Notes: a model not told the origin generated them from the sequence alone. A DNA stretch of 58,403 nucleotides, filler included, from Sphacelaria rigidula (GCA_964200075.2; 8 parts of 8 records of this genome joined end to end with filler, not necessarily neighbours in it); one strand, 5' to 3'; positions 7,215 to 58,403 are shown, counted from the first letter of the whole stretch. Program-made: numbers and translations.

Positions 7215-7314
7215 NNNNNNNNNNNNNNNNNNNNNNNNNNNNNNNNNNNNNNNNNNNNTTAATTAATTAANNNNNNNNNNNNNNNNNNNNNNNNNNNNNN
7301 NNNNNNNNNNNNNN
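7215..7314. other. Artificial 100-bp contig linker (44 N + TTAATTAATTAA + 44 N); same linker at 14528-14627, 21841-21940, 29154-29253, 36467-36566, 43780-43879, 51092-51191
   Basis: Seven identical linkers; the 12-mer puts stops in all six frames; the intervening segments are 7214, 7213 (x5) and 7212 (x2) bp, i.e. length-sorted contigs. Confidence 0.97.
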
Positions 7315-14527: not shown

Positions 14528-14902
14528 NNNNNNNNNNNNNNNNNNNNNNNNNNNNNNNNNNNNNNNNNNNNTTAATTAATTAANNNNNNNNNNNNNNNNN
14601 NNNNNNNNNNNNNNNNNNNNNNNNNNNGGGAATTCCCACGTTTGGGTTCGTTCTAGCCAATGCCGCCAATATGAGGCGCTTCATGCAACCTGAACCCGAA
14701 CATCAGGCGCTGTATCGCTATTTTTTTCGTGACACTTTTGAGCTGGTTTTGGGGGGGGGGGCTATCGTAGAAAGTGTCACCTTAGACCACCCAACCACTC
14801 CGGTATTTGGTGTATACTTCGAAGTATGCTGCCTGTGTTGAGATGAAGTCGTGCGCAAAGTTTCAGCCGTGAGTAAGGAGCCACGCGGTGGAGATATACG
14901 CA

Positions 14903-21510: not shown

Positions 21511-22166
21511 TGTACCTGTCCAGCACTTGAATTTCCACGCCACACAACCAAGCGGATTGCTGATACTATGGCGGCGTCAGGGAGATCTTCCGATTGCGAT
21601 GCCAAGCTCTTCTACTTCGTGAACGGCCCACTTGATGAGTATGAAAGTTCTGATGGATGATAAATGTCCCACTCCGCTTGTTCGGGTGTATTGACTTTGG
21701 ACTGGACGTGACCATGGTGGTGAAGATGGGCGTGGTTTGCTTTTGGCTCAAGAATTATGGATTATTTGGGATGTAGAGAAAATACGTAAGACTAACACGA
21801 ACAAAACTGCGAGACAAAAAAAATCACGCTCTCGCAGTTGNNNNNNNNNNNNNNNNNNNNNNNNNNNNNNNNNNNNNNNNNNNNTTAATTAATTAANNNN
21901 NNNNNNNNNNNNNNNNNNNNNNNNNNNNNNNNNNNNNNNNAACTTCAACAATCGACCAGCGGCGGTGCCGTGCATTACCAGGTTGGTCTGAAGTTCACAG
22001 CGATATGCTCAAGTCGGGCTGATTTGGTAAATTTGACGAGTTATGGTTGGAGATGCAAATGCGGCAGTTACTGCTGGCCCAGCCTGTACATGAAAACCAA
22101 ACATTGGCTAGTGAGTGAGTGGCCTGGGAAATACTGCTCCGAATTGATACCGACCCGGTTTTGAAA

Positions 22167-27743: not shown

Positions 27744-30229
27744 CTGTGTTTACGGTGGGAGGAGGCACAGGACAAGTTCGCGCCGCCTTGCTTTGTATAC
27801 TCATTTTTTTTCTTGTTGAAAGATTCACACGGGAATAAGGCTAGCTGGTCAGCTCAAGGAATATGATAGTGTGCGGCCCCAGAAAAGGTATACCTTTTGT
27901 AGGTCATACTTGGTTTACTTCGTACTTTACTTCATGCACTGAACAACTCCGCTGTACCAGGAAATGCGCACTCTACGAGTAGCTCACGTCTGACAGACGA
28001 ATATGATGCAGTTATATCTCGTGTACAGATCAAGTTGCCCTACTGCGACCAATTACACTTCCCACCAACCACCTTTAGTATTGAAGGCCAAATGTTATAA
28101 ATTCGTACACAGTCGTGTGGGGGCATGCGCAGAACGACTGTGACCTTGATAAGTGGCTGTTTGTAACAATGGCTGACGGACCGATACATCATCGGTCAGT
28201 TTGGGTGGAATAGTGACTTCGAATCCCCGCGATAGCAATAGTGTATTTTAAACGTTTCCGTCGTGGAAAGCGTGAGTACATGGGTTACCTCCGAATTCCA
28301 CGGTAGTCGACGGGATACGAGAGTGCCGACAGTTATGACGCAATGTCCAATATCAGATTGCGAGGTTGGTGCAGGGGGGGGAAAGATGAGTTGACACCTC
28401 GCGACCACTGCAAAACTCGTCCTTGAGAAAAAACTGCGGGCTCTTCATTTTCTGCTCCTTGTTTCCCCTGCACTATAATACTTACTGTACCTGTTCAAAA
28501 GACATATCAAATTTCGTCAACACCACACTCGGATATATGAATCGGTTGATAAACTTCACGAAACCCCTAACCGACGAGATTGTAATTTGAATGAATCCTG
28601 ATCCGTTCCACTATTCCCATACCTAGCCCTCGTCCTGTAAAAACGGGGGCCGGGTGTTCGCCGTACGTCGCCGCTATGCGTCTTGTCTCAAGTTTTATTT
28701 ATACATCATGTGTACCACCGACGGCGAGCGGAAACAGGTTGAATGCACGATTTCTTGTGTTGTTCCGCTGCTTGCCGTGTGCTACCAACACATGAGACGT
28801 ACATATGGACAGACAAAGTCTACTACACGCTGGCCACACTCGTTTTCCGAATCCCACACCGTTATTGCCACTTGACCGGTAGGTACACCACAAGGTGGGT
28901 GCACACGTATGGGAGCCAACGGTCGGATACGTGAGGAATCACACTGTTTTTTGAACGCGTGATTCAGGAGGTTCCCTGCCCCTCCCCCCTAGCTGGGTGT
29001 GGGGAGCGGGAGTACATAATGTAACAAAATTCGAAAGCAACTGCAAAGACGGGTGCTTTTTTTGTGGTATTTTTATTTGGGGGGGGGGGGTGTACTCATG
29101 ATCATGCATGCCATAGTCATCAGACCATTGACCTCGCATCCCTACAAAGCCGGNNNNNNNNNNNNNNNNNNNNNNNNNNNNNNNNNNNNNNNNNNNNTTA
29201 ATTAATTAANNNNNNNNNNNNNNNNNNNNNNNNNNNNNNNNNNNNNNNNNNNNTGATTATCTTGCATTTGGATGACAGCCAACAATAAGCTGCTTTATTC
29301 TGTGGCATCGCCACTTCCAGAGACAGCCACAGCTTTTACACTGCCTCACGGGTGTCTAACCAGTGGACATCGAGGTGGGGGGGAGGGGGGGTAATATCCC
29401 GCTGATCCGAGTCGCTTCCGACGAACACAGTCGAACTTTTTTTGCTGTGGACTTGTGCCACTTCGTTGCAACCCATCTTCCACTCTTTTTCATGTTGGAA
29501 GGCGCCAGCAACAAGCATGTTTCGCGACATTTGCGTGGCAGTCTTCTTGCGCTGACCGCCGTGAAGTTTGCGGTCGCTGCAACCGAGCCGAGCCTTGTCT
29601 GACCCGCGGTCACTCTCGACTAAAGTAATCGCAGTCGACAATGGTATTGAGCGTGCGAGCCTTGGTGTAAACTGCTGCTTAATTGTGTTGGTGGTCAGGA
29701 AACGCTCATTGGCAAGCAAAAAGACTACTACGCGAACAATATCCAAACACTGTTGTGCATTGTACATTCGTGAACAAGCTAAGTTGGGGACCCTGTGTGG
29801 AATACGCCACCCGCACGACTGCCTACTTAGACTACGGGGGCCTCCAAGGATTACAAGGGAACCGCCTTTCCGCGTGCCTCAAACGTCCACGCTGGCTCCT
29901 AGGTGGCAGGATAGATTTGTCCGCCTGCCCCGCTGCGCTGTCGACCGAATAAGACCTGCCACGCTTTTTGCGACCCTTACGTCCCCGCCCACCCCCTCCC
30001 GTGCTATCTTCTTGTTCTTCGTCCTCTTCTTTTTTTTCTCCCTCGTCCTCCTCGTCTTCCTCACCAGTATTATCCACGCTGCCATTTCGGGACCCGCCTC
30101 ACTTTCAGCTCCCGTCTCACGCTGCCGTCGCCCGTTGTGTTGTGGTTCCATCAACCCCGTCGCCCTATTATCGTGTGCCGTTTTGTGCGGCCTACCCCTT
30201 TCGCTCACAGACTTTGGCTTCGAAGATTG

Positions 30230-36075: not shown

Positions 36076-36821
36076 CGGTGACACAGCACACCGTAGCACG
36101 TCACATCCTTAGCCTAGCCCTGCGCTTTTTGAGTCGCCGCCGTCTGATGAAGTTCGCCACATATGAACGCAGACGCTTGGGCTGTGGTCCATGTGTACGT
36201 GGGATCACCCCTTGCTACGACCTTGTCCATGGTGTGATATAGTCCCACATGAAATGTTGCGCGGAGAGATCGTGAAACAATCCGCAACATATGAGCGAAG
36301 TGAAAGTGGGACAATCGCCAAAATAACCACGTCAAGCACCGTACTCCAAGTTGATGCCGCCAGAGGAATACCGCTACAACCACGTTGCTGGTTGCCAAGC
36401 TGTCAGCACGCTGTGTCCGGAAGTTGTGGTGCTACCTGCAAGTAGACGTTGCCACCTTGCCAGGTANNNNNNNNNNNNNNNNNNNNNNNNNNNNNNNNNN
36501 NNNNNNNNNNTTAATTAATTAANNNNNNNNNNNNNNNNNNNNNNNNNNNNNNNNNNNNNNNNNNNNGCTCAGGCAAGACGAAGAGACGACGGAAACTCTC
36601 CGTAGCTTGGTGTTTCGGGACATGGAAAATTTGGCATGAATATTGATGCCGATTCAGCAGGTGACCTACTCTCGCGGTCTGACGGTCAAGTCCTCCTGCG
36701 GAGTTCGGGGGGGGAAGATACTTTTGCTCTGTGTTATTCTTTCGTATCTTCCCTGCAAGAGAGAAATGCGACTTCAGCCCCATTTTAGTGTTGAACCCCA
36801 AAATTTAAAATCGGCTGTTAA

Positions 36822-41954: not shown

Positions 41955-43300
41955 GGTTCACGGAAAAAAAAAAACACTCATCGGCAAAGCTTCACGCCAT
42001 TTGAAGGAGTTGGACCCTGAAATTTTGCACAGGTGTCCTATGGATCATTGGGTCATTACGCAACTTCGTATGGACGAGGTTTTTTTACTTGTTAACGTTT
42101 TCACCGTTTTTCCGGGGTCCCAGTTTTTCGGGAAAACTTCGATCCAGTTGAACCGCGTAAAACGGTAAAAAACAAAAAAAAATAACAAAAACATAGTCCA
42201 TAAAGAGTTGCGTAATGACCCATAGCACACCTGTGCAAAATTCCAGCGTCTAACCCCTTGAAACGGCGTGACGTTTTTCGTGTTTGTGCGATGAACCTTG
42301 CCGTGCCACGGTGAAACAGCAAACTACTAGATTTTAGTATGAAAATGGCGTTTTTGGGCCTTTTTCGACGTGAACATGAAATTCTAGCACCAGTTAATCG
42401 AGTTTGGCCACGAAAAATTGTGGGGTCCCTCCTTGGGTTTTGCGGTGACAGAGCGTTCGCGAAGAAAATGAAAAGAAGACTGTAGTGCCGGTTTTCCCGG
42501 GACCCGGAATGGATGACTTTGGAAAAACGACTTGGATCCCGTCAGACCCCCGAAAAACGGCAAAAAATCAAGAATTAGAAGAACCTCGTTGATCAAAACT
42601 TGCGTAATGGTTCATAGCACATTTTTGTAAAGTTTCAGGGTCTAACTCCTAATAAATGCGTGAATATTTGCGCGTTTGCGCGAGGATGTGAGCTTTGAAC
42701 GTGCACATGCCTAACTACTTGGTTTAGGTATGAAAACATTTTTTATGGTAATTTTACGTCAAGGCAGGAAATATCGTATGAGATTTTCGATTTTCTCCAC
42801 CAAACTTCGTACATGTGTTCCTTGGACCATCCTGAGACGCATCATGTTGTTATTTTTCCTTTTGAGTCATTCTGTACCGCCTTCCGGGGGGTCTTTGTAC
42901 TGGGACCCCCGGAAGCCGGTAGAGAACGGAGAAAAACACTTGCCAAGAACACAATTTTTCCATTTGGAGCATCAATATCTATAAAACTGCCAAGTTTGGG
43001 GATGATCTGAGCTTTCTACATAAGATATAAGGGAAATCGTCACGAGGCTCCCTGAGTCTTTCCTGCGTACGAGTATCATGAGGGGAAATTAGACGACGCC
43101 AAACTCCACATCACCGGAACATTACGGATTCAGGTATAACCCCGTTGGAACCGTTTTCAAATCCGTTTCTCTCGTAAGATTCTTGAGGTGATGACGGTCA
43201 CTACGATTCGAAGCATGTGGGGATTCCGTGGAAATTGAGCTTGGGATTCGTATTTTCAATTTCGGAACAGTTTGAAAGGCGCTGATTGGTCGAGACAGAT
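41955..43300. repeat. Composite repeat with inverted arms (41955-42090 / 42185-42298) and a third arm copy (~42595-42685)
   Basis: ttcacgcc.tttgaagg.gtt.gac.ctg.aattttgcacaggtgt pairs with acacctgtgcaaaattccagcgtctaaccccttgaaacggcgtga. Confidence 0.65.
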
Positions 43301-44823
43301 TTTTGTCCAAAGCGCCACCACTATAGCCTTGAAAAAAATCCCCGCCTATGTCACCCTCTCCGTGTTTTCAATGCGGTCAGTATGATACCATGCATGCGAC
43401 TACAACAGTTGCGGCCCGTAGATAAACGTCAATTTGGGGTTGAGGCTCAAAGTCTTATTTCGGGCGCAAACATCAGCATAAGTTGTGTTTTTTCTTATAT
43501 TGAGTTTTCTTATATATCTGGCCGACCGGATCCTGTTGATTTTCTCGAATTGTCGTTTCCTTATATCCTCGATGTGCTGCCTCCGCCACCTCCTCGCTGC
43601 ATGCAAATTACCCAACGAAAAACACCCCCGCAGGTCTGCAGTGTCTAACTGGCGCTACCCAAAATCGAGAACGTATGCCGCTCCTACAAAAAGTACAATA
43701 TAGCAGGGGTGTACTGATGATCATGCATGACATAGTCATGAGACCATTGACCTCGCATCCCTACAAAAGCCGGGACGGANNNNNNNNNNNNNNNNNNNNN
43801 NNNNNNNNNNNNNNNNNNNNNNNTTAATTAATTAANNNNNNNNNNNNNNNNNNNNNNNNNNNNNNNNNNNNNNNNNNNNCCTGGACAACCCATCCCCACA
43901 AGGCCGGGAGGGGGGCCCCCGGGTTTTCGCGGGCCCAGGCCCGTTGAATGGGGGGGGGGGGGGGGGGGGGGTCATTTTCCCCAAGAACTGGCCTCGGCGG
44001 AACAGGAGCCAAATGGGTGTTCGATAATACATTGCTCCAATATTCCTGCTTTGACTATAAAGCCTCAGTCGTTATTCCACTTCTGGGGTTTCACATGGTC
44101 TACTTACTCCCATATCATTTTCACCACCTGCTCGCCGAGTCAAACGGGAGGGAATTTCGCCAAACGACATTTCGAGTGAATATCACCATGCTTTTACGTG
44201 AGCCTGTCTTGACTCTCCGGCTATCGCAATACTTACACCTCGGTTTACTTGCACAGCTCAGTGCCCACGTCTATCGCTGTACAAACGCACACCTCGCGTT
44301 ACACGTACAATCCAAGTGCCGGCCGATGAAGGCGACATGGAACGGAAATGTGATGTCCCCGCTAGTCCTTTTCTCTCTTCATGTCTTTCGGCCCTGAGTA
44401 ACCAACACACTATGTACAAACGCCTCCACACGTGGAACAGACCGGGGGGTAAGACCACCCATCTCCATGTGCAATATGGGTATGACATCCCTCACCACCA
44501 CTAGATAGATACTCCAAAATATCACCCATACCCCCTGATCCCCCCGCATACGGGCTAAATCAGAAAAATGCGAGCGCCCATGGATGTAAATGATTGCGCC
44601 ATGTTCCTGAAACGAAGCCTCTCTCGTCACCAAGGCGCAAGATATACCACATATTTCTTCCCTCAAGAAAACTCGCAGTGTGACTTCGAAAGCCGGGGCG
44701 GGGTGGCCACGCTGCATTTGAATATCCCACCAGACGCTTCAAGGAAAACTAACGATGAGACACAGATCGGCGTGCGGCGGGCACGTCATGAAGACGCAAA
44801 CTCGTCTTTGTTTTGATGGACAC

Positions 44824-47742
44824 TTACAGAATGGAGGAAAACGGAGGCGAAACTGCGAGCTTCGCCTTCAAGCCTTCCTCTTCCCTATCGAATAGCACTG
44901 AAGCAGCGCCCACAGCAGTGTCTTCTGCCGGAGGGCGTTCACAAACCACCGACGGCGTCCTGCGAATCCGCTTCTTCGTTCTTTCCTCACCACCATCGCT
45001 GGGGTTACTGCTCATCGTGCTGCTCCCACCCTCACCAGAGTAGGCGGCCATGTCAACCCTCCTCTGTAAGCCATGCCCGGGTAGCTCCATGGGGGTAGAC
45101 TCCTCCATTTTCACGTTCATGCACGGCCTCGTCATCCGTGAGCCTTCCTCGGCGGCACCCTCGGTGGTCTGCGACAACGTGTCACCACCGCGTTCTGAAC
45201 TTGCGAGTGGAAGGGGTGCGAGCCAAGCATCACCCGCACCGCCGTTGTCACGGGTGGGATGATTGGGTTGTCCATCCTGGGTAGAACCTTCGTCAACGAT
45301 GTCTTCCAGTTGCCCACGCTTGGTTGCTTCGGACACGGCAGCCACTTTGTGCTTTGCACCATGTTGGCAGAGGGTACCCTGTTCGACGTCATCCCCGCCA
45401 TGCACACGTCGATTCGAGCGGCCCTCGTTGCTGCACTTCTTCCTCACGTCACTATGGACCACCTCTGGCCTATCTTGGGTGGCACATAACTCCGCCTCCC
45501 GGCTTCCCGCCGCATCGTACGATGCTTGCTTGGAGCAGCCTTTGTCGCCGCACTTTTTCCTCAACACATCAACCATCCCCGGCCTGGCGTGGATGGCACA
45601 AAATTCCGGCTTCCGGCTTCCCGCTACACCGTATAATGCCTGCTTGGAGCAGTCTTCGTCGTCGCACCTTTTCTTCACCACATTAATCATCCCCGGCCAG
45701 GCGTGGGTGGCACAAAATTCCGCTTTCCTGCTTCCCGCTACACCGAATGATGGTCGTTTCAAGCAGCCCTTGTTGCAACACTTCTTGTCCGCTACATTGA
45801 CCATCCCCGGCCAGGCATGATCCATGCAGAATCGTCTATCCCTAGTTCCCGCTACACCGAACGATGGTCGTTTCGAGCAGCCCTCGTTGTCACACTTTTG
45901 GTTCACTACACTGACCATCCCCGGCCTGGCATGGTTGGCGCAGAACTGTCTTTCCCTACTCCCCACTATACCATACGATGGGATCTTGAAGCAACCTTCG
46001 TTGCCGCACCTCTTGTTCCTCACATTGACCATCCCCGGCCTGGCGTGGTCGGCACAGAACTCCCGTTTCCGGTTTCCCGTTGCACCATACGATGGGCGTC
46101 TGAAGCAGTCCTTATTGCCGCACTTTTTCCTCACCACATCGACCATCCCCGGCCTGGCGTGGGTGGCACAGAACTCCACCTTCCGACTTCCCGCTAAACC
46201 ACGTGATGCATATTTGGAGCAACCCTCGTCACCGCACTTTTTCCTCGCCACATCGACCATCTCCGCCCTGGCGTGATGAGCACAAAACTCTGCATTCCGG
46301 CTTCCCTCTAGACCGTATGACACTTGCTTGAAGCAGCCCTCATGGCCGCACGTTTTCCTCACTACATCGACCATCCCCGACCTGGCGTGGGTGGCACAAA
46401 ATTCCGGCTTTCGGCTTCCTGCTGTACCATACCATGCTTGTTTGAAGCAGTGTTCGTCGCCGCACTTTTTCTTCACCACATTGACCATCCCGGGCCCGGC
46501 GTGGGTGGCACAAAATTCTGGCGTCCGACTTCCCGCTACACCATATGATGCCTGCTTGGAGCAGCCTTCGTCGTTGCACCTTTTTTTCACCACATCGACC
46601 ATACCCGGCCTGGCGTGGCGGGCACAGAGCTCCGCCTTCCGGCTTCCCGCTACACCATATGATGCCTGCTTGGAGCAGCCTTCGTCGTCGCACCTTTTCT
46701 TCACTACATCGACCATCCCCGGCCAGGCGTGGTCTATACAGAATAGCCTTTCCCTAGTTCCCGCTACACCAAAATATGGTCGTTTGGAGCAGCTCTCGTT
46801 GCCACATTTCTTGTTCTTCATGTCAATCATCCCCGGCCTGGCGTGGGTGGCACAAAACTCCGCCTTCCGGCTCCCTGCTACACCGAACGATGGGTTTTTG
46901 GAGCAACCCTCGTTGCCGCATTTCTTGTTCACAACATCGACCATACCCGGCCTGGCGTGGCTGGCACAGAGCTCCGCCTTCCGGCTTCCTGCTACCCCGT
47001 ACGATGGGTTTTTGGAGCAGCCCTCGTTGCCGCATTTCTTTTTCACTACATCGACCATCCCCGGCTTAGCGTGGCTGGCACAGAGCTCCGCCTTCCGGCT
47101 TCCTGCTACCCCGTACGATGGGTTTTTGGAGCAGCCCTCGTTGCCGCATTTCTTCTTCACTACATCGACCATCCCCGGCCAGGCATGGGTGGCACAGAAC
47201 TCCGCCTTCCGGCTTCCCGCTACACCAAAATATGGTCGTTTGGAGCACCCCTCGTTGCCACACTTCTTGTTCTTTATGTCGACCATTCCCGGCCGGGCGT
47301 GGGTGGCACAAAACTCCGCCTTCCGGCTCCCCACTACACCGAACGATGGGTGTTTGGAGCAACCCTCGTTGCCGCATTTCTTGTTCACAACATCGATCAT
47401 ACCCGGCCTGGCGTGGCTGGCACAGAGCTCCGCCTTCCGGCTTCCTGCTACCCCGTACGATGGGTGTTTGGAGCAGCCCTCGTTGCCGCATTTCTTCTTC
47501 ACTAGATCGACCATCCCCGGCTTAGCGTGGCTGGCACAGAGCTCCGCCTTCCGGGTTCCCGCTACACCATACGATGGTCGTGTGAAGCAGCCCTCATTGC
47601 CGCACTTCTTGCTCGCTACATCGACCATCCCCGGCCAGGCATGGATGGCACAGAACTCCGCCTTCCGGCTTCCCGCTACACCAAAATATGGTCGTTTGGA
47701 GCACCCCTCATTGCCGCACTTCTTGCTGGCTACATGAGCCAT
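44824..47742 (-). CDS. EsV-1-7 cysteine-rich repeat protein (972 aa, single exon, 20 near-complete 38-aa repeats plus an acidic/low-complexity C-terminus)
   Basis: Repeat consensus KKCGNEGCSKxPSYGVAGSRKAEFCATHARPGMVDVVK (C-x4-C-x16-C-x2-H-x4-M) matches the EsV-1-7 motif of Ectocarpus virus EsV-1 and brown algal proteins; intact 2.9-kb ORF. Confidence 0.93.
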   Translation of the reverse strand: MAHVASKKCGNEGCSKRPYFGVAGSRKAEFCAIHAWPGMVDVASKKCGNEGCFTRPSYGVAGTRKAELCASHAKPGMVDLVKKKCGNEGCSKHPSYGVAGSRKAELCASHARPGMIDVVNKKCGNEGCSKHPSFGVVGSRKAEFCATHARPGMVDIKNKKCGNEGCSKRPYFGVAGSRKAEFCATHAWPGMVDVVKKKCGNEGCSKNPSYGVAGSRKAELCASHAKPGMVDVVKKKCGNEGCSKNPSYGVAGSRKAELCASHARPGMVDVVNKKCGNEGCSKNPSFGVAGSRKAEFCATHARPGMIDMKNKKCGNESCSKRPYFGVAGTRERLFCIDHAWPGMVDVVKKRCDDEGCSKQASYGVAGSRKAELCARHARPGMVDVVKKRCNDEGCSKQASYGVAGSRTPEFCATHAGPGMVNVVKKKCGDEHCFKQAWYGTAGSRKPEFCATHARSGMVDVVRKTCGHEGCFKQVSYGLEGSRNAEFCAHHARAEMVDVARKKCGDEGCSKYASRGLAGSRKVEFCATHARPGMVDVVRKKCGNKDCFRRPSYGATGNRKREFCADHARPGMVNVRNKRCGNEGCFKIPSYGIVGSRERQFCANHARPGMVSVVNQKCDNEGCSKRPSFGVAGTRDRRFCMDHAWPGMVNVADKKCCNKGCLKRPSFGVAGSRKAEFCATHAWPGMINVVKKRCDDEDCSKQALYGVAGSRKPEFCAIHARPGMVDVLRKKCGDKGCSKQASYDAAGSREAELCATQDRPEVVHSDVRKKCSNEGRSNRRVHGGDDVEQGTLCQHGAKHKVAAVSEATKRGQLEDIVDEGSTQDGQPNHPTRDNGGAGDAWLAPLPLASSERGGDTLSQTTEGAAEEGSRMTRPCMNVKMEESTPMELPGHGLQRRVDMAAYSGEGGSSTMSSNPSDGGEERTKKRIRRTPSVVCERPPAEDTAVGAASVLFDREEEGLKAKLAVSPPFSSIL

Positions 47743-50700
47743 TTCTGGCCTGGTGCGGTCGGCACAGAACTGTTTTTCCTTACCTCCTCGTCCACCGAAC
47801 GATGATCGTTCGAAGCAGCCCTCGTTGTCGCACGAAACTCCACGATGTTTGCGCCGTTCACGACATATGGTTCATCTTGAGCAGCTCTCCTGGGCACACT
47901 GCCAAGCAAGCATTATCGCCACGCCAGGAAAACAAGCGACACCAGGGTACACAACTCCCGCCTGCTACTAGAAGTCACACTACCAGATAGCCGAGCAAAG
48001 AGGAGCACTCCGCTGTTGTCTCTTCTGATGTTGCCTGAGAATATCGAACGGAATTACAAAGCGGGGGCGAACATGGACACAAATTTCTCAGAAGCGACAT
48101 ACGGTACTTCGAAGAAGAATGAGAAGTACCAGCTGTTCAGATCTCGTGAGGGTCTCCATCTTGATGATAAAATTGGGTAGGCCTCTGCTTTGTTCTACTG
48201 GCAGACCATAAATAAAGCTGCTGATTCCTGTTGTGGAGAGCTTCGTAACTCCCTCGACCACGCAGTCCCTCCCAAATAGCGACACATGAACGTGCAATAG
48301 TGTGGGAGAATGGGTCGATCGGGGAAATACACGATCGTTTCGAAGTCTTCATGAAGATTAAAAGATCCGAAGCCTTCGTCCCAAACTCGTAGTCCGACCT
48401 CCTCCGTGAGTTGCGCTACGCAGAAACCATCATGAAGTCTACATGTATCACAAATGTCTACGCACATGAGAACCCTATGCACTCGATTCAGACCAAATAC
48501 ATATACGAACTGGTATCACTGAGAGGGACGTCCTCGTCATGGGTACCATTTCGCGAATTTCTGACGTTGGTGTGTGACGCCGCTGTACCCTTGCGTGTTG
48601 GTACAACTTGCCGAGGACTTCAGGCCTCAAAAGGCAGTCAGGTTTCTCGGCTACTGACGACTACAACCAGTCGGTTTCCGCACCATCAATTGGCATGCAT
48701 GCAACAAACAATGGCAAAATGCGGTCCCACAAACGAGCAATTACGCTACGAAACAGTGGGGAGAAACTACCGAATTTGACATTTCTATGGATGAGTGAGT
48801 CGAAAAAAACTACCGAAATTACACGGAATCCCACGTTTTGTTTTGCTCAGTATTGAACCATTCGAGATGCGGCAGTTTCAAAACAAATACGGCAAAACGA
48901 TAGCATTTCCGCCTCTCCGTCCGACAAGCGAACGCCAGTTCCTCGCCGGATGTTGGACGTACGCAACAAGCTTAGACTCAGCCAGGAGGGAACACAGGAT
49001 ACATGGATGCAACGCCTACTTCAAAATGTAGGATAGCAAAAAATAAAGTGAACTCAGTGGAAAAGTAGTATCTATCGGTGTCTAACGGCCACGAACTGTC
49101 CGTTCGCCAAAGTATTTCCAAAGTCACGGTGTGGCTTGAGCGGTGAAGCCCATGGTTCATGACACGACTGTGAGTTGGTTGTAGGAGATGGCGGTGGGTC
49201 GCCCCACCCCGTTCTCGAACACAAGAGGGCCTCCTGCGCAGCACTCCTTGTCTGCGGCATTGTTTGGCCCATAGGCGCCCCAAAATTCGTGGTAGCCGAA
49301 ACCCGTGCTCTGCGTAGGCCGTGATCGTCTTGCCTTCGCGTCAGGATTGGATTTAGATCGATTCAAGGGAAGCACGGGCAGAGCCCGTGGCTGTGTTTTG
49401 CCACCCACCCCCTTGGTTGAAGAGCGGGTGGGTCGGTGGGTCGACCCACTTTCATCTATTTTCCTTTATGAAAGCTCAAGTGCCGCCTCCAAACCGGTGC
49501 ATGACAATTACGATACATTCCGGGACTCATAAACGAACGCACGGTCACATTGTCAATGAAATACAGAAACACGACCCTCCAAGAAGCGATGATGAGCTAC
49601 AGTACGTAATTCACTTTATAATCTTCCGTAGCATGCGTCAAGAAATAATGCCCCCATCGTGGATGGCCATCGCTTGACCTGTGCCGAGAGATACACCACA
49701 TGTACCGTCCTTGTGTGTACGATGATAAATCGAAATACTATGCGATCGGGACACCCTACTCTATATGCTCGTGGTACACGCCGGTTCAGGGTGAATGCCC
49801 AAATTTATTCCTCACGTGTACTCAGTACAGGCGACACGAAGAATTTCGTGTGAATTGTCTCACAGATTGTGTGTTTCGTACAGTAGGATATCAAGGAAGG
49901 AGCAAGGTGCAGTACCGACAGCACAGGACTATCCATAATCTCTGCATGAAGGAGGATAATGGATTTTGTTGAACAACATGCAGTTTCGTAGTACCTGCAC
50001 TGTCCCTGAGCGTCCACGCAAGTCGGTCGCCAACCCTACCACGCAATTCGATTGCCGATCCCTACAATGAAGAGGATGCTCAAGTTTTCGCCGGTAATCG
50101 CGTCGTGCTACGATGGGGGGGGGGGTATTTTGGGTCGTTTTCTTCCACGACATTCCACTTCCACTGTCGTTGAAAGCAGCTAACAGTTGTTCGAACGCGC
50201 TTGCTCGCGATAAATAACGCTCCTTCACACTGCTTTACACCGCTTTCACACAAATGCAAGCGCACCGCGAGTGTTTTAGGTCGTTCGACGCATCTATGAG
50301 CACATTTTTTCGTGGAATCGAACACCCCTCTCCCTTTCGTGGCATGACTCAATAGAAACACACCATGCCAAGAGGGTGGTACTGCCAGTTCCCAAATATC
50401 GCGATATTGACCCAGTGTTCAACTCGTGATGTATGCTGCAGGCTTGCGTCGATTGCTGAGAAAATCGTGTGAGGTACGCATGGTTCCGTGAAAGGGTGGT
50501 ATCTCGCGTGATGGTCTTCAAGATAGGAGTCACGTGCCTCCCCGTGCTCTGCCGTCGCATGTTTTCGATCGAAATTGTTACGTGCACTTTTCTGCTCTTC
50601 ACTGTACCCGCTGCACGTTTTCGATCGAAGAAACAAAATGGTCCGAGACAAGGCCTCACAACAAAAAAATAACATTTTGGACTCAGAAAACGTGAGAACG

Positions 50701-51191
50701 AAAGAACAGTTGGATGAGAATGCGAAAGGGTTGTGAAATGGTTGCCACGAGAGGGCTGTTCGGCTCTTCACGGGGTTCATAGCTGGCTTTCGCATCACTA
50801 GTGATGGTAGCCACGCCTGGAAAACACACCCGTCGTGCACAGCTCCCAGAGAGAGACGTGCACGGCTATATCTCCTAGCACTTCGCCGACTGAGCAGGCA
50901 TGGACCCATCGGCGGGTAGGTGGTACGGGCCAGGGATTCCCAGCAGGGCGGCGATCACGCGCATGGTGCGTGGGCATTGTCGCACGGTCGAAACGCAGAC
51001 CGTTTCTTGTACGATGAAGAGCAGCAGCAGCATCAGTGTCGGAACCGACTAATTCTGCCCCACCCCCAGCCGTACACATCTGTTGGTGACANNNNNNNNN
51101 NNNNNNNNNNNNNNNNNNNNNNNNNNNNNNNNNNNTTAATTAATTAANNNNNNNNNNNNNNNNNNNNNNNNNNNNNNNNNNNNNNNNNNNN

Positions 51192-54100: not shown

Positions 54101-57100
54101 CCGCCGAGATTTGGGATTATGCTTACACTGTTTCTACCTCTGCGTTTACTACAGATGATGCACATCTGTGGAACCCCCTCCTCTCGTCTGCTGCCAGACA
54201 CGAGGCCTTCAGCCGCCACGCAAATAGTTGCATTATTTGTAACACCCAAGGGCACAGTATGCGCGGTTGAACTCGCCTCTGAATGAACTCTTTCGACCTC
54301 ATGAACTCTGAGCTGCAGGACAATGAGCCAGCATGGCGCCGATGGCAGAAACGCATGCGTGAATACCGCACACCCAACCGTCATTCTCGCAGCCCTTTCA
54401 ACAACCGCGACAACACTCGCTCGAATCGCGACAGTCGTCCCAACAACTGCGACAACTCTGGCTCCCAGCCAAGAGAGAGTTCTTCTCACCGTCGCCGGAA
54501 TTCCGCCGATAGACACCAGCGCACGGGGCCAAATCACCATCACTCGAACCCCAACACCAGAAACCCTGGTTCCTTTATGACTGATCGTACTGATCCATGA
54601 CATGCCGACGCCGACGTTTTCACGTCTTCGGCGCCGCCGACAGCACACACGAAGACTACTTCAACACCAACCGCGGAACGAGTGACCAAACCTTCTCGCT
54701 CAACCTCCCCGGCACTATGCAGGAGTTCTAATGACGGCCGTTCATATCGACCCCCGTCTTCACCTCTTCGCACACAGCGTAACAGTTGCGTTGACTCACA
54801 ACTTAGCCCTACCCTCGGCTCTGGACTTGGTCCTCCGGAACTGAGCGCATGGCTGAGGTGTGGGAACACCAACCGCCCGTCTCTGAGGCAAAGGCTTCCC
54901 TCAGCGACCGCACGCACAGGCAGTAGTGTACTTCACTCGACTGGTTCAAGTATCGCTGGTCGGAATTCGACCGCTTCGGACCAGGTAACACCCACCCCGG
55001 TCGAACGATTTCATTCTTCGCGTTCATTGCACCATGCGAAGCTACCCCTGAATGGTCTCCACATAAACCATCCTACTATACCTTCGGCTATGACTCTCAG
55101 CCAAGCTTGCCAGCGGACAGTCCACAAGCTTCGCCCGAGCATGCCCCGATGCTGACCCCATCCACTCAACTGGACGCAGTTGGGTTTTCCCCAAACACAT
55201 TGGAAGTTCCCCGCCCTTTGTCACGGCGAGAGAGGAAGCCCCGTGAACATGCCCCCACTGAAGCGCGCGCATCAACACGTACACCTCCGTCGAGTGGAAA
55301 ATCTCGACCTCACTCTCTCCGAAATGCGACGACTTTGAGCTCGATGAATTTATCAAGTGTCCCACAAGAACCCGAATCAGATATTTCGGACATTTTCACC
55401 TCTTCTGCGGACTACACTGAACAAGATGGATCTACTTTAGACGTTGATCCCTGCTTTCCCAACACGGTCATCTATGAAATTGCTAACGACCAGCCGGGCT
55501 GTGCTCACTCTGGGGACTACACATCATCCACCAAACTTTCTTGTGAGGAAGTTGACCCCCCGGCGGATCACCCGCCCTCCGTTTTCGCCGTCAGCACTAC
55601 TGATTCCGATCAATTTACCTTGGCTGAGCACGGTCCGGATGTTGTCGGCGGTAGAGTGTCTGTTGATCCTGCCACTTTTACTACTCGCGTAGCGCTCCAT
55701 TGTGGATCATACGCAACCACGACTACCAAATGCGTCCCTTTGTTAAACAGCGGCAGCCCACAAACATTTATTCTTGAATCAATGTGGGAACATATGAAAC
55801 AGATTGGCGCTGCTTCAGCAGCTTGCGAAAACACCACCGAACCTCGAGTATGGGGCAGTTTTGGTGACTCCACCGCACCTTTGACCACACGAATATCAGT
55901 TCGTCTCAGTGTGCAATTCTTTCACAACACAACTCGTTCTGCTAGCCTTGCAGTCTGGGCATATGTCGCCCCGACAGCACCATGGCCCACGCCTTACTCA
56001 TGGGCCGAGACAGTTACATGCGGTTTGATCAACGCACCTACCGCACAATACTACCATTATCGCCACAGTCTGCGCCTCGTGGAGAACTCAACCTTGGACA
56101 TTCCGGTACTCTTCACGGCGCCTTGGCCTATCAAAAAAACGAACAAGCTACCGGAGCTGCTTACCACCTCCGATACGATGGTAGTGCTGGTGTTACTCTC
56201 TCCGATGATCCTCAACTGCTAGAAGTTGCCTTAGTTCGCCGAAATGGCATGCCTGCCCTTACGGGACATTCCCTCGCTGAAATGCTTCCTCGGGTTGTTG
56301 CGCCTACCGGCACAGAACACTTTGTCTCCGCAGGGAAAAAACGTTTGCCACTCACGGGTCGCGCTAACTTGGAACCCGGAGATGTTTTGGGTATTGCTGC
56401 TGCTCCCCTTATGCACATTCCACTTGAGACATGTGCCACTGAACCCTCTACGCCCAGCTCGGCGCCTCCGACAGACGGCTCTGTCAATCGCGTCGATGAG
56501 CCTTACTTCGACGTAACCTCTTCGTCTCCATCACGTATCCACACCGTGGACCCTGCAACGTCAACGTCCGACCCTCCTGGTGAAGTGCTGCAACGCCTAT
56601 CCCCCGTATCTCAGACAAGTTTCTTGCACATGCGGGATCAACTTCCCTCCCATTTACGTAACATCAACTTTGGCCTACATGGACCCGGTTGAGAACGCGC
56701 TGTAATCAACGAATTGAGCGATGTTTTATAGGAGTACCAAGACCGATTTTCTCGATCCAAACCCAATCTGGGGCATTGCAAAACGCTGCCCTTTGAAATC
56801 ACCCTTCAAGCTGGCGTTTCGCCACTATCTTCTCGGCCTTATCGGACGAATCCCATCCTTACCCAAGAAAGTTAACGCCATTTTAGATGCGTACTTAGGT
56901 GCCGGATTAATCCAACACTCCTCTTCTCCGTGGGCCTTACCGCTAGTGGTGATCCCCAAAAAGGATGGGAACATACGCATCACCGTGAAATATCAACGGC
57001 TAAATCGCGTCACTGTAGTGGGAAAACTTCCCATTCCTCGCATAGATGAAGTCTTAGACTCTCTAGGCGAAGGAAAATTATTCAGTACCTTCGATCTCGC

Positions 57101-58403
57101 TTCTGGATTTTTCCAGAATGCCATCCACCCTTATACAGTCCCACTGACAGCGTTCTGTACATCTTCTGGGCTCTACGAATGGCTCCGTATGCCACAGGGT
57201 GCCGCCACTGCACCAGGTTGTTTGCAACGCTTAATGCAACGCGTTACAGAGAATCTCGAACACGTCATTATGTACTTGGACGACGCTATCGCATTCGATG
57301 CCTCCCCTCTTGCGCATGTGCACACCTTACGAGAGTTTCTTTCTCGACTGCGGAAACATGATTTAAACTGTCTCCATCCAAAGCTCGCCTTGGCGCGACT
57401 GAACTGGATTTTCTGGGACACTCAATTTCACCGGCGAGTCTACCCCCCGAAACCAACAAAGTCCGAGCAATGACTGAACTGCCGATGCCCACGAACATTA
57501 CTCAGCTCCGCTAATTGTTGGGTGGACTGTCCTGCTATCGCAATTTTTTGCCTAACCTGTCCAAACGGATTCGCCCCATTATGGACTTGCTTAAAAAAGG
57601 CGCTGCGTTTGTCTTCACCAAAGATACGGAAGCTATCGTGCGCGACTTGATGAAAACGCTCACCGAAAAAACGGTCCTTTGTTTTCCGGACTGGGATGCC
57701 GTACAAGACGGCTCTCGCCTCTTTCAACTACATACAGACGCGAGTACCGAAGGCCTCGGCGCGGTCCTGAATCAGTCTCAACTCGATTGCTCTATTCGAC
57801 CCATTCTCTGTATCAGTCGCGCCACCCTTCCCAACGAGGCCAACTGGAGTCCACTGGAGCTGGAAGGCGGAGTCACCACTTGGGCCATAAAGCACCTTCA
57901 ACAATATTTGTTCCATGTGCATTTCCAAATCTACACAGATCACGGAGCACTTGAACAACTCGTCAAAGTTGGCGAACATAACCCGCGTGTGCAACGCTGG
58001 TTGGAGTTCCTGACAGCTTATCAGTATACTGTCAAACACCGCCCTGGCAAAACCAACGGGAATGCTGACCTTCTCTCCCGCTTGCCCCTTCCTCCAACGG
58101 CTGTGGATTTCAGCCCCGCTTGTCGACTAACTGAACCCGATGAACCCGGCGTGTATCCTATCCGGCGTTTCTCGACGCCCATTTACGCCCTTGACCTTCA
58201 TTGCCCAGAGACGGGTATGCACATGGGCGGCCCCCGACCCCTACCGTATGATGCAGTCTTGAATGGGCTACAACCCACCGACGCCGATTTCGCCGATTTC
58301 CGTACTATCGGTCCTCGCGCAAATATTGCAGTTTCGCCACCTCCAGTTAACAGCCGATTTTATATTTTGGGGTTCATACAAAATATGGGGCTGAAGTGGC
58401 ATA
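51192..58403 (+). mobile_element. Decayed Ty3/Gypsy LTR retrotransposon internal region (long gag-like region, PR, RT, RNaseH)
   Basis: CCHC remnant CIICNTQGHSMRG* (54229-54270); protease-like LLNSGSPQTFI (~55740); RT SPWALPLVVIPKKDG...FDLASGFFQ...MPQG...YLDD (56920-57283); RNaseH LHTDASTEGLGAVL...TDH...NADLLSRLP (57728-58090); many frameshifts and stops. Confidence 0.93.

What the first reader, a model, noticed from the sequence alone, without database searches (positions are those of the whole stretch)
45430..47742. EsV-1-7 array with a rigid scaffold and hypervariable positions: possible programmable recognition protein
Seen: 20 repeats of exactly 38 aa (114 bp) with invariant Cys spacing and no indels until the last. 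Variation clusters after the second Cys (RPYF, RPSY, HPSY, HPSF, NPSY, NPSF, QASY, QAWY, QVSY, YASR, IPSY, RPSF, QALY) and around the His (AIH, ASH, ATH, IDH, ARH, AHH, ADH, ANH, MDH; then W/K/R/G). The protein is Lys/Arg-rich, has a basic NLS-like RTKKRIRR near the C-terminus and no catalytic domain. Established: EsV-1-7 repeats are shared by phaeoviruses and brown algae (including IMMEDIATE UPRIGHT) and their ligand is unknown. Inference: the layout resembles TALE/PPR/C2H2 arrays and could be a modular nucleic-acid-binding code, for example against the transposons or viruses of this genome.
Basis: partly seen in the sequence, partly recalled or inferred. Interest (0 to 1): 0.75.

Follow-up and report, generated by a model that had tools for sequence, protein, structure and literature searches.

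The report
Twenty-unit EsV-1-7 zinc-repeat protein gene
This gene encodes twenty head-to-tail copies of a known small zinc-binding repeat plus a floppy tail with a nuclear-entry signal; it is an unusually long but otherwise ordinary member of a large algal and giant-virus family, it probably binds DNA, and nothing yet shows a readable recognition code.

Summary
An intact 972-codon ORF on the minus strand (44824-47742) encodes 20 in-register 38-residue EsV-1-7 units (Pfam PF19114, 20 stretches, E 6e-296). A degenerate 21st unit and an acidic tail follow, and the tail carries RTKKRIRR.

The units are under purifying selection (median dN/dS 0.28). The most variable columns (33, 17, 6, 5, 28) change at about the synonymous rate, not faster. 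They are also the least constrained columns across the whole family (rho 0.74). The "rigid scaffold" partly reflects recent duplication: units 1-4 and 5-8 are 88-97% identical in DNA.

No test supports a TALE-like code. DNA binding is plausible, though. 131 of 237 relatives fuse the same array to a nuclease domain whose model best matches Vsr and the homing endonuclease I-Bth0305I. An Ectocarpus mariner transposase also carries the domain, as published. The array here has net charge +64.

Earlier notes of this scan found the virus nuclease fusion on other DNA. The repeat fold had no match among solved structures. Twenty units is the most among the 237 relatives examined (next: 16). Verdict: a new, long member of a known family.

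The parts
44824..47742 (-). Complete ORF of 972 codons plus stop; single open frame with no in-frame stop
   Evidence: ORF list; translation
45463..47742 (-). Array of 20 EsV-1-7 units, each exactly 114 nt / 38 aa, with ligand pattern C9-x4-C14-x16-C31-x2-H34 (unit 20 has Q in place of H)
46831..47742 (-). Units 1-8, a recent duplication of a four-unit block. DNA identity is 89% (unit 1 vs 5), 88% (2 vs 6), 97% (3 vs 7) and 95% (4 vs 8)
   Evidence: identity matrix; period 456; tree
45349..45462 (-). Degenerate 21st unit (residues 761-798). The first Cys is shifted by one residue and the second ligand is lost
44824..45348 (-). Acidic C-terminal tail, low in complexity, with no Pfam family. It differs between two haplotypes at about the rate of the flanking DNA
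   Evidence: net -6 and pI 5.6 for residues 761-972; 10 nonsynonymous and 4 synonymous among the 14 listed differences
44959..44982 (-). RTKKRIRR (residues 921-928), an NLS-like basic motif. A KR.R motif recurs in the tails of relatives that lack the nuclease
   Evidence: (19 of 47 tails without nuclease against 3 of 59 with it)
45103..45114 (-). VKME (residues 877-880), matching psi-K-x-E. That this is the SUMO-site consensus is recalled, not taken from a call. The motif recurs in tails of relatives
   Evidence: 29 seen against 12 expected from shuffles, in 41 tails
47743..47913 (-). Relics of two more units just upstream of the ATG and in the same frame. One has lost its His (CDNEGC...FCADR). 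The other is cut by an in-frame TGA (MLAWQCAQESCSR*)

Best explanation
This is a real, selectively maintained gene of the EsV-1-7 family, the family of the brown-alga developmental regulator IMMEDIATE UPRIGHT and of giant-virus proteins.

Shown:
- There are twenty 38-residue units, each with the ligand set Cys9, Cys14, Cys31, His34.
- AlphaFold models them with high confidence as a continuous chain of small modules. Short strands at columns 20-22 and at columns 1-3 of the next unit recur in every unit.
- The array carries net charge +64 and is followed by an acidic tail with an NLS-like motif.

Inferred:
- Each unit holds one zinc ion.
- The array forms a stiff basic rod that lies along DNA in the nucleus. 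Unit-specific surface residues, such as columns 8/17 and 33/36, give it a sequence or site preference.
- The acidic tail, with its NLS and psi-K-x-E motif, is the effector part. The protein would then act as a transcription or chromatin regulator derived from the DNA-targeting array of giant-virus nucleases.

The array grew by unequal crossing-over, most recently by copying a four-unit block. I do not think the evidence supports a simple code of one unit per base.
For: - Family membership: PF19114 in 20 stretches, E 6.4e-296.
- Selection on the units: median pairwise dN/dS is 0.28 over 190 unit pairs and pooled pN/pS is 0.40. The Cys columns have no amino-acid change while synonymous changes occur at C9 and C31. 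In a second haplotype (run X4) the units differ less than the tail and flank: at most about 13 differences in about 1095 nt, against 13 in 433 nt and 31 in 1211 nt.
- Fold: a model of units 9-14 has mean pLDDT 91.8 and pTM 0.63, with the same strand pattern in each unit.
- DNA link by domain fusion: 131 of 237 relatives carry a C-terminal RPD...E(V/I)DE.QH...NPD domain (59 of 106). R444, P445, D446, E459, D461, E462 and H465 are invariant in 48 aligned proteins. In the model of P0012 (pLDDT 88.9) this domain best matches Vsr endonuclease 1cw0 (Z 8.9, rmsd 3.6, 125 aligned) and the catalytic domain of homing endonuclease I-Bth0305I, 3r3p (Z 8.2, rmsd 3.4, 95 of 98 aligned). Many other PD-(D/E)xK nucleases follow; Foldseek's weak rows are of the same kind.
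- I-Bth0305I is a multidomain enzyme that footprints about 60 bp (PMC3239194, abstract read).
- Other relatives carry a reverse transcriptase (P0100) or helicase-associated domains (P0052).
- Charge: array net +64, pI 9.4; mean +3.2 per unit.
- Nuclear hint: KR.R occurs in 19 of 47 tails without nuclease against 3 of 59 with it.
- Unit identity is kept between orthologue-like proteins. In 27 unit pairs from 6 protein pairs, the variable columns match in 63% of cases, against 13% between units of one protein.
Against: - There is no direct evidence of zinc or DNA binding for any EsV-1-7 protein in the papers I could read (passages of 10.1101/2024.02.19.579948, 10.64898/2026.04.27.720984, PMC7457493 and PMC12993054). 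[quoted passage not shown]
- The repeat model has no match among solved structures. Foldseek's best E is 0.8 and VIA-align's best Z is 2.7 and 2.9. No known DNA-binding fold backs the reading.
- Domain fusion is indirect. The array could instead bind protein or RNA next to the nuclease.
- The top nuclease Z scores (8.9 and 8.2) are only just above the range the tool calls common.
- The tail differs between two haplotypes at about the neutral rate: 10 nonsynonymous to 4 synonymous among the 14 listed. An effector role for it is therefore weakly founded.
- The NLS and SUMO readings rest on short motifs only.
Confidence: 0.45

Rival explanations
1. One reading: a programmable reader. Each unit contacts a fixed number of bases, and a few hypervariable residues (after the second Cys and next to the His) spell the target, as in TALE, PPR or C2H2 arrays.
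For: - Columns 17 and 33 have the highest entropy (2.23 and 2.38 bits) and the most inferred amino-acid changes (8 and 9 of 125).
- Column 17 uses mostly R, Q, N and H here (18 of 20 units). These residues often contact bases; that point is general knowledge, not from a call.
- In the model, columns 8 and 17 both appear as isolated bridge residues flanking the Cys knuckle. A basic residue and the variable residue may therefore lie side by side; this is inference.
- There are 19 consecutive spacings of exactly 38 residues. In relatives only 303 of 597 spacings are 38, and the longest such run is 9 units.
- Unit-specific residues are largely kept between orthologue-like proteins (63% against 13%).
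- The virus relatives look like array-guided nucleases.
Against: - There is no excess of nonsynonymous over synonymous change at the candidate columns: pN 0.41-0.54 against pooled pS 0.45.
- Variation is spread out. The top 5 columns hold only 30% of changes.
- The same columns are simply the least constrained in the family (rho 0.74 and 0.69). They are also the least conserved between orthologue-like units (63% against 76% for other columns; rho 0.72).
- In relatives, units differ over their whole length (27-40% identity), not at two positions.
- There are 14 different column 17/33 pairs in 20 units, so no small alphabet.
- The Q17-A18 link is peculiar to this protein. In the family, Q17 goes with P18 in 61 of 75 units. 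The link therefore reflects shared descent of units.
- The two nonsynonymous differences seen in the units of haplotype X4 lie at columns 10 and 16, not 17 or 33. This is 2 of 5 listed, and 14 further differences were not shown.
- An earlier scan note on a virus family reached the same negative result (e1-7843934).
Confidence: 0.12
2. A zinc-stabilised scaffold for protein-protein contacts, as RING, B-box, LIM or PHD modules often are. It would act in development through partners rather than through nucleic acid.
For: - The only structural rows found for the repeats, all weak, are zinc modules with mixed roles: RING domains (Z 2.0-2.7), the nsp13 zinc-binding domain, B-box, PZP and GRF.
- No known DNA-binding fold matched.
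- Ectocarpus family members carry no other Pfam domain (10.64898/2026.04.27.720984, passage read). That leaves the ligand open.
Against: - A net charge of +64 over 760 residues is unusual for a protein-docking surface.
- The recurrent partners in fusions are enzymes that act on DNA: a Vsr-like nuclease in 131 of 237 relatives, a mariner transposase (PMC12477816) and a reverse transcriptase.
- The structural rows are far below any meaningful score.
Confidence: 0.18
3. An RNA-binding array, like tandem CCCH or RanBP2-type zinc fingers. It would act on transcripts, for instance of transposons or viruses.
For: - The ligand set is Cys3His and the charge is strongly positive.
- Vsr-like folds also occur in RNA-binding proteins. 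The FASTKD4 RAP module matched the virus nuclease domain at Z 7.4.
- One relative is fused to a reverse transcriptase.
Against: - No sequence or fold similarity to known RNA-binding zinc fingers was found.
- The best structural matches of the fused domain are DNA enzymes, Vsr and I-Bth0305I.
- A mariner transposase needs DNA targeting (PMC12477816).
Confidence: 0.1
4. A young, expanding repeat gene that drifts without a function of its own, for example a by-product of unequal crossing-over in a fast-turnover family.
For: - A four-unit block was duplicated recently.
- Decayed units lie at both ends.
- The tail evolves at about the neutral rate.
- No close orthologue exists among 1.84 billion representatives; best identity is 59%.
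- No RNA run is on record for the stretch; see Tried and rejected.
Against: - The 2919-nt frame is open.
- Median dN/dS among units is 0.28. All four ligand columns are kept in 19 of 20 units even though synonymous divergence among many units is about 0.7.
- The units differ less than the flank in a second haplotype.
Confidence: 0.05

Closest known systems
EsV-1-7 domain family (Pfam PF19114 / IPR043822): Ectocarpus virus EsV-1 gene 7, Ectocarpus IMMEDIATE UPRIGHT, and 2018 proteins in 31 brown-alga and sister genomes (10.1101/2024.02.19.579948, passages read)
   Same: - Same repeat, with all 20 units above Pfam's threshold.
- Same Cys-x4-Cys-x16-Cys-x2-His pattern.
- No other Pfam domain, as reported for the Ectocarpus members (10.64898/2026.04.27.720984, passage read).
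- A tail with a KR.R motif, as in the nearest relatives.
   Different: - More units than any of the 237 relatives examined: 20 against at most 16. IMM has five, according to the passage in 10.1101/2024.02.19.579948.
- Perfectly regular 38-residue spacing through 20 units, against 51% of spacings in relatives.
- No close orthologue; best identity is 59%.
- The IMM-specific N-terminal domain is not expected here and was not tested.
Giant-virus EsV-1-7 arrays fused to a Vsr-like nuclease; nearest solved enzymes are Vsr (1cw0) and the EDxHD homing endonuclease I-Bth0305I (3r3p; PMC3239194)
   Same: The same repeat array sits N-terminal in these proteins. They make up 131 of 237 relatives and are 30-40% identical to this protein across the array.
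   Different: This protein has no nuclease domain. The motif is absent and no Pfam family is found. An acidic tail with an NLS-like motif stands in its place. The virus proteins rarely have KR.R in the tail (3 of 59).
C2H2 zinc-finger, TALE and PPR arrays (analogy only)
   Same: Tandem short modules of fixed length. Some columns are invariant and others vary from unit to unit. Arrays grow by unit duplication. In nature or by design, such arrays occur fused to nucleases.
   Different: - No sequence or fold similarity.
- The ligand set is Cys3His, with a short turn rather than the beta-beta-alpha finger.
- Variation is not confined to one to four positions.
- No positive selection was detected.
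- No ligand is known.
First zinc site of the plant SBP DNA-binding domain (Pfam PF03110)
   Same: - A Cys3His site (PMC5768680, passages read).
- By my recollection the spacing is the same, Cys-x4-Cys-x16-Cys-x2-His; this comes from no call.
- One two-unit piece aligned in register from the first Cys to SBP profile positions 1-35 (E 0.031, 15 bits).
- SBP proteins also carry an NLS.
   Different: - The hit is below Pfam's cut-off of 27 bits.
- None of the 20 single units listed SBP.
- SBP has a second, interleaved Cys2HisCys site that is absent here.
- No SBP structure appeared in the fold searches, which the tools say does not exclude it.

Membership tests
EsV-1-7 cysteine-rich repeat family (PF19114) | Match to the family HMM above the curated threshold (25 bits) | tested here: met
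   954 bits, E 6.4e-296, 20 stretches. Each of the 20 single units matches on its own, best E 9.7e-19.
EsV-1-7 cysteine-rich repeat family (PF19114) | Ligand pattern Cys-x4-Cys-x16-Cys-x2-His in tandem units of about 38 residues | tested here: met
   19 of 20 units carry the full pattern and unit 20 has Gln for His. Every unit is 38 residues long.
EsV-1-7 cysteine-rich repeat family (PF19114) | Zinc binding, proposed in the literature but not shown there in what I read | not testable with these tools
   [quoted passage not shown] No metal data were seen.
TALE/PPR-type modular code array | Near-identical units in which one or two positions carry nearly all the variation | tested here: not met
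   32 of 38 columns vary. The top 5 columns hold 30% and the top 10 hold 51% of 125 changes. In relatives, units are only 27-40% identical.
TALE/PPR-type modular code array | Diversifying selection, or a small residue alphabet, at the specificity positions | tested here: not met
   pN at the top columns is 0.41-0.54 against pooled pS 0.45. There are 14 different column 17/33 pairs in 20 units. The test is crude: single codons and non-independent pairs.
TALE/PPR-type modular code array | Variable residues aligned on one face that tracks a nucleic acid | not testable with these tools
   Structure prediction returns no coordinates, and no modelling with DNA or RNA is offered.
C2H2 zinc finger | Cys2His2 ligands and a match to the family HMM | tested here: not met
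   The ligands are Cys3His. No C2H2 family was listed at E up to 0.1.
C2H2 zinc finger | Beta-beta-alpha fold | tested here: inconclusive
   The only C2H2 row is WT1, 2jp9, at Foldseek E 6.9. VIA-align gave nothing above Z 2.9.
SBP domain (PF03110) | Match to the family HMM above the curated threshold (27 bits) | tested here: not met
   Best is 15 bits, E 0.031, for one two-unit piece. None of the 20 single units listed it.
SBP domain (PF03110) | Second, interleaved Cys2HisCys zinc site | tested here: not met
   Each unit has only the four ligands C9, C14, C31 and H34. The SBP layout is taken from PMC5768680 (passages read).
Vsr / EDxHD-type nuclease with an EsV-1-7 array (giant-virus form) | C-terminal RPD...E(V/I)DE.QH...NPD nuclease domain | tested here: not met
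   The motif is absent from the 212-residue tail printed (read by eye; the motif scans covered only the relatives), and no Pfam family was found there. It is present in 131 of 237 relatives.

The most novel reading that the evidence does not exclude
EsV-1-7 arrays are a fourth natural class of modular DNA readers, beside C2H2, TALE and PPR/PUF. Each 38-residue zinc unit would read a fixed step of DNA through a few exposed residues (columns 8/17 and 33/36). Giant viruses would use the arrays to aim Vsr-type homing nucleases, and brown algae would have domesticated hundreds of them as nuclear regulators. On this reading, the 20-unit array here would recognise a site of tens of base pairs. Its duplicated four-unit block would read a tandemly repeated DNA motif, such as a satellite or transposon ends.
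Probability: 0.12. Interest if true: 0.85.

Novelty: new member of a known kind. Interest (0 to 1): 0.35.

Why it matters
[quoted passage not shown] Yet the papers I could read give it no biochemical function. This gene adds no new kind of protein. Its long, regular, partly young array is, however, a convenient test object.

Combined with the virus nuclease fusions, it turns the question of what the repeat binds into a direct experiment: zinc content, DNA binding, and target mapping of the nucleases. If the units did read DNA in a predictable way, they would be a new natural platform for DNA targeting. That would also explain how a virus-derived domain came to be used in algal development. If they do not, the family is still a good case of array growth by unequal crossing-over under purifying selection.

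Tried and rejected
1. Whole genome: none is held for this window, so paralogues in the same genome and tandem clustering could not be examined. A motif scan of the window found units only in this gene.

2. Expression: no RNA holder is listed. All four runs laid were contigs, so expression, transcript ends and introns remain open.

3. Solved structures by sequence: no hit for the protein, for the unit profile (best E 9.4) or for the virus-protein profile (best E 2.8).

4. Fold of the repeats:
- Foldseek against PDB gave nothing at E 0.001 or better.
- VIA-align over 48161 chains gave a best Z of 2.7.
- A second look at Foldseek's 33 rows gave a best Z of 2.9.
"No known fold" is therefore not established.

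5. Pfam side hits rejected as repeat or composition noise:
- DUF1490, where no single stretch passes.
- TPP_enzyme_N and DUF7483.
- Multi-haem cytochrome, FeS and Phe_ZIP.
- Zf_WRKY19, which matched 4 of 20 units with best E 0.0022, below its cut-off.

6. Transposon reading of the gene itself: no inverted repeats flank it apart from the spacer artefact, there is no transposase or RT domain in the ORF, and no Rfam family lies in 42000-50500.

7. Paper: Macaisne et al. 2017 (Development 144:409) is not held. I know it only through citations in the papers read. Supplements of the two bioRxiv preprints are closed, namely Table S17 of 10.1101/2024.02.19.579948 and Fig. S11 of 10.64898/2026.04.27.720984. 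They may list longer arrays or closer relatives than I saw.

8. Not in print, as far as the held library goes: searches for 'EsV-1-7' with 'repeat' (9 papers), 'IMMEDIATE UPRIGHT' with 'cysteine-rich' (19 papers) and PF19114 or EsV-1-7 domain terms (11 papers) returned no title or passage on a ligand, a structure, a nuclease fusion or a recognition code. I read passages of five of these papers only.

9. Complex prediction and the protein atlas were not used. Neither tests DNA binding.
Full report
What is there. The minus strand carries one open frame from 47742 to 44824, 972 codons long. Cut every 38 residues, the first 760 residues fall into 20 units in perfect register. A 21st unit follows, shifted by one residue and missing ligands, and then a 174-residue tail. 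Tandem Repeats Finder sees the same array: period 114, 20.6 copies, 79% matches, 1% indels. It also reports a period of 456, which is four units. [quoted passage not shown] No catalytic family passes its threshold, and each unit matches on its own. Columns M1, C9, C14, G24, R26 and C31 are invariant, and H34 is kept in 19 of 20 units. The gene extends beyond the finding's lower coordinate, down to 44824.

Setting. The window is not one continuous stretch. Every 7313 bases it is interrupted by a spacer of 44 N, TTAATTAATTAA and 44 N. The finding lies in the piece 43880-51091. The retrotransposon ORFs at 56721-58402 and the zinc-knuckle ORF at 11255-12328 lie in other pieces, so they cannot be called neighbours. 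No other EsV-1-7 unit occurs in the window. No inverted repeats flank the gene and no Rfam family lies nearby. Just upstream of the ATG, in the same frame, lie relics of two further units. One has lost its His. The other is cut by a TGA. The array has therefore decayed at both ends. No whole genome is held.

How the units evolve. DNA identity between units ranges from 58% to 97%. Units 1-4 and 5-8 are a recent copy of a four-unit block: 89, 88, 97 and 95% identity, position by position (tree). Over the 190 unit pairs the median dN/dS is 0.28, with one pair saturated, and the pooled pN/pS is 0.40. The units are thus under purifying selection. C9 and C31 collect synonymous but no amino-acid changes. 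The most variable columns are 33, 17, 6, 5, 28, 36, 22 and 27. Their pooled nonsynonymous differences per site are 0.50, 0.54, 0.41, 0.44 and 0.45 for columns 33, 17, 6, 5 and 28. That is about the pooled synonymous value of 0.45. This is what relaxed constraint gives and is not a signal of diversifying selection. The test is crude, because it uses single codons and non-independent pairs. On a tree of the units I infer 125 amino-acid and 78 synonymous changes. Columns 33 and 17 lead with 9 and 8, but the top five columns hold only 30% of the changes and the top ten 51%.

A second haplotype. Contigs of run X4 differ from the window.
- Among the 19 differences listed inside the ORF, the tail has 10 nonsynonymous and 4 synonymous.
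- The units have 2 nonsynonymous, at columns 10 and 16, and 3 synonymous.
- The tool did not show 14 further differences.
- By contig, the tail and 3' flank differ at 13 of 433 and 31 of 1211 positions.
- The unit region 45563-46657 has at most about 13 differences in 1095 positions.
The units are therefore conserved relative to the flank. The tail is not.

The family. A word-indexed search found 107 relatives of 534-1701 residues, the best 49% identical. An exhaustive phmmer run over 1.84 billion cluster representatives found 6444 at E 0.001 or better and 1044 at 1e-30 or better. The best identity among the top 150 was 59%. No orthologue is therefore on record. Named hits come from brown algae (Ectocarpus, Scytosiphon, Sphacelaria, Pylaiella), green algae and a Faustovirus. 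From this I infer that the window is from a brown alga or a close relative. Among the 237 relatives in hand the largest number of units is 16. Only 303 of 597 unit spacings are exactly 38, and the longest such run is 9 units. This array, with 20 units and 19 consecutive exact spacings, is thus the longest and most regular seen. The column entropies here follow those of the family: rho 0.74 against within-protein entropy in 31 relatives and 0.69 against 414 pooled units. The variable columns of this protern are simply the family's least constrained ones.

A hallmark test on relatives. Specificity positions should differ between units but be kept between orthologues. I found six independent pairs of collinear relatives, 66-78% identical, and compared 27 orthologous unit pairs. 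The ten most variable columns match in 63% of orthologous unit pairs (column 17: 63%; column 33: 59%). Between different units of one protein they match in 13%. The other non-ligand columns show the same contrast, 76% against 27%. The variable columns are also the least conserved between orthologues (rho 0.72). Each unit therefore keeps its own identity over its whole surface, which fits a specific ligand. Nothing singles out two or four code positions. In these older arrays the units are only 27-40% identical, so the near-invariant scaffold of the present array owes much to its youth.

Structure. AlphaFold2 on units 9-14, with an alignment of 69 rows, gave mean pLDDT 91.8 and pTM 0.63. The pattern is the same in each unit: a short strand at columns 20-22, one at columns 1-3 of the next unit, and isolated bridge residues at columns 8, 17 and 30. 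Columns 8 (Lys/Arg) and 17 (variable) flank the Cys-x4-Cys knuckle and may lie side by side; that is inference. No solved structure resembles the model: Foldseek's best E is 0.8 and VIA-align's best Z is 2.7 and 2.9. All weak rows are zinc modules of mixed function. The tools return no coordinates, so I could not test whether the variable residues share one face. A single unit was not folded alone.

What the array is fused to elsewhere. In 131 of 237 relatives the array is followed by a conserved domain with the motif RPD...E(V/I)DE.QH...NPD (43 of 107 by a strict pattern; 59 of 106). In 48 aligned proteins R444, P445, D446, E459, D461, E462, H465, N494 and P495 are invariant. Pfam gives only a sub-threshold DUF2726 hit, and a profile search of PDB sequences finds nothing. 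A model of P0012 (pLDDT 88.9) places this domain next to several nucleases:
- Vsr endonuclease 1cw0: Z 8.9, rmsd 3.6, 125 aligned.
- The catalytic domain of homing endonuclease I-Bth0305I, 3r3p: Z 8.2, rmsd 3.4, 95 of 98 aligned.
- A DUF559-like protein, 3hrl: Z 7.5.
- A long list of PD-(D/E)xK nucleases.
Foldseek's weak rows are of the same kind. The tool warns that Z near 8 is not far above the common range. The conserved acidic and His residues and the uniform list of nucleases make the reading likely. I-Bth0305I is a multidomain enzyme that footprints about 60 bp (PMC3239194, abstract). [quoted passage not shown] One relative carries a reverse transcriptase (P0100) and one carries helicase-associated domains (P0052). 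Enzymes that act on DNA are thus the recurrent partners of this array. Earlier notes of this scan had reported the virus nuclease fusion on other DNA several times. I had reached it independently, so it is not independent evidence.

The algal form. This protein and its nearest relatives lack the nuclease. In its place stands an acidic tail (net -6, pI 5.6) after a strongly basic array (net +64, pI 9.4). A KR.R motif, here within RTKKRIRR, occurs in 19 of 47 tails without nuclease and in 3 of 59 with it. A psi-K-x-E motif, here NVKMEE, occurs 29 times in 41 such tails against 12 expected from shuffles. That these are a nuclear localisation signal and a SUMO-site consensus is my reading of short motifs, not a test. 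A basic DNA-reading part, an NLS and an acidic tail together make the usual layout of a transcription regulator. That fits the developmental role of IMM (10.1101/2024.02.19.579948 and PMC7457493, passages).

Other resemblances. The ligand spacing equals, by my recollection, that of the first zinc site of the plant SBP DNA-binding domain. PMC5768680 (passages) confirms only that this site is Cys3His and is followed by a Cys2HisCys site and an NLS. One two-unit piece aligned in register to SBP profile positions 1-35, but at E 0.031 and 15 bits, below the 27-bit cut-off. None of the 20 single units listed SBP. I keep it as a lead only.

Verdict. The gene is a genuine, constrained, exceptionally long member of a known family. 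The array most likely binds DNA in the nucleus (about 0.45 for that mechanism as stated). This rests on domain fusions, charge and motifs, not on a known fold or on any assay. The specific idea of a programmable code carried by a few hypervariable residues is not supported by the tests possible here, and I put it at about 0.12. A protein scaffold, an RNA binder and a drifting young gene remain as rivals. What the repeat binds is still open in the papers I could read. The experiments that would settle it are listed under the next steps.

Noticed in passing
window 7215-7314, 14528-14627, 21841-21940, 29154-29253, 36467-36566, 43780-43879, 51092-51191: Every 7313 bases the window has a spacer of 44 N, TTAATTAATTAA and 44 N, which cuts it into eight pieces. 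Whether neighbouring pieces are adjacent in the genome is unknown, so gene context should be read only within 43880-51091.
   Followed up: partly
window 47743-47913 (-): Two decayed EsV-1-7 units lie in frame just upstream of the ATG. The distal one forms a 13-codon upstream ORF (MLAWQCAQESCSR, then TGA). The array was once longer at its 5' end.
   Followed up: partly
window about 48034-48040 (-): Contigs of runs X1, X3 and X4 (one study; 'RNA' is only the tool's guess) stop matching at 48038, each with about 100 further letters that lie nowhere on the stretch. A contig of run X5 runs on to 48900. The minus-strand sequence there reads ttctcag followed by G, like a splice acceptor. This is at most a weak hint of a 5' intron.
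   Followed up: no
window 47073-47740 and 45737-46237: Over units 1-6 and 14-18 the summed depth of contigs at least 95% alike rises to thousands, against 45-80 on the flanks, and hundreds of records were laid. The tool warns that this is not a copy number. It does suggest many near-identical units elsewhere in the same runs.
   Followed up: no
window 46328-47737 (+), also 45263-45820 (+) and 46843-47505 (+): Long antisense ORFs of up to 469 aa run through the array. They are repeats of the same antisense reading of each unit and are most simply a by-product of the periodic sequence.
   Followed up: no
window 56721-58402 (+) and 11255-12328 (-): Retrotransposon remains in other pieces of the window: RVT_1 (E 6e-19), RT_RNaseH (E 2e-25) and a zf-CCHC ORF (E 2e-6).
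   Followed up: no
relatives P0012, P0018, P0027 and others (not in the window): More than half of the relatives (131 of 237) join the array to a Vsr / I-Bth0305I-like nuclease domain with invariant R-P-D, E-x-D-E and H. Between the array and the nuclease there are further conserved Cys pairs: C365, C381, C384, C396 and C399 in P0012.
   Followed up: partly
relatives P0001, P0003, P0004, P0015, P0017, P0021, P0026, P0039; window 45103-45114: A short motif (A/T/N)-V-K-x-E recurs in the otherwise unalignable tails of the nuclease-free relatives: 29 seen against 12 expected from shuffles, in 41 tails.
   Followed up: partly
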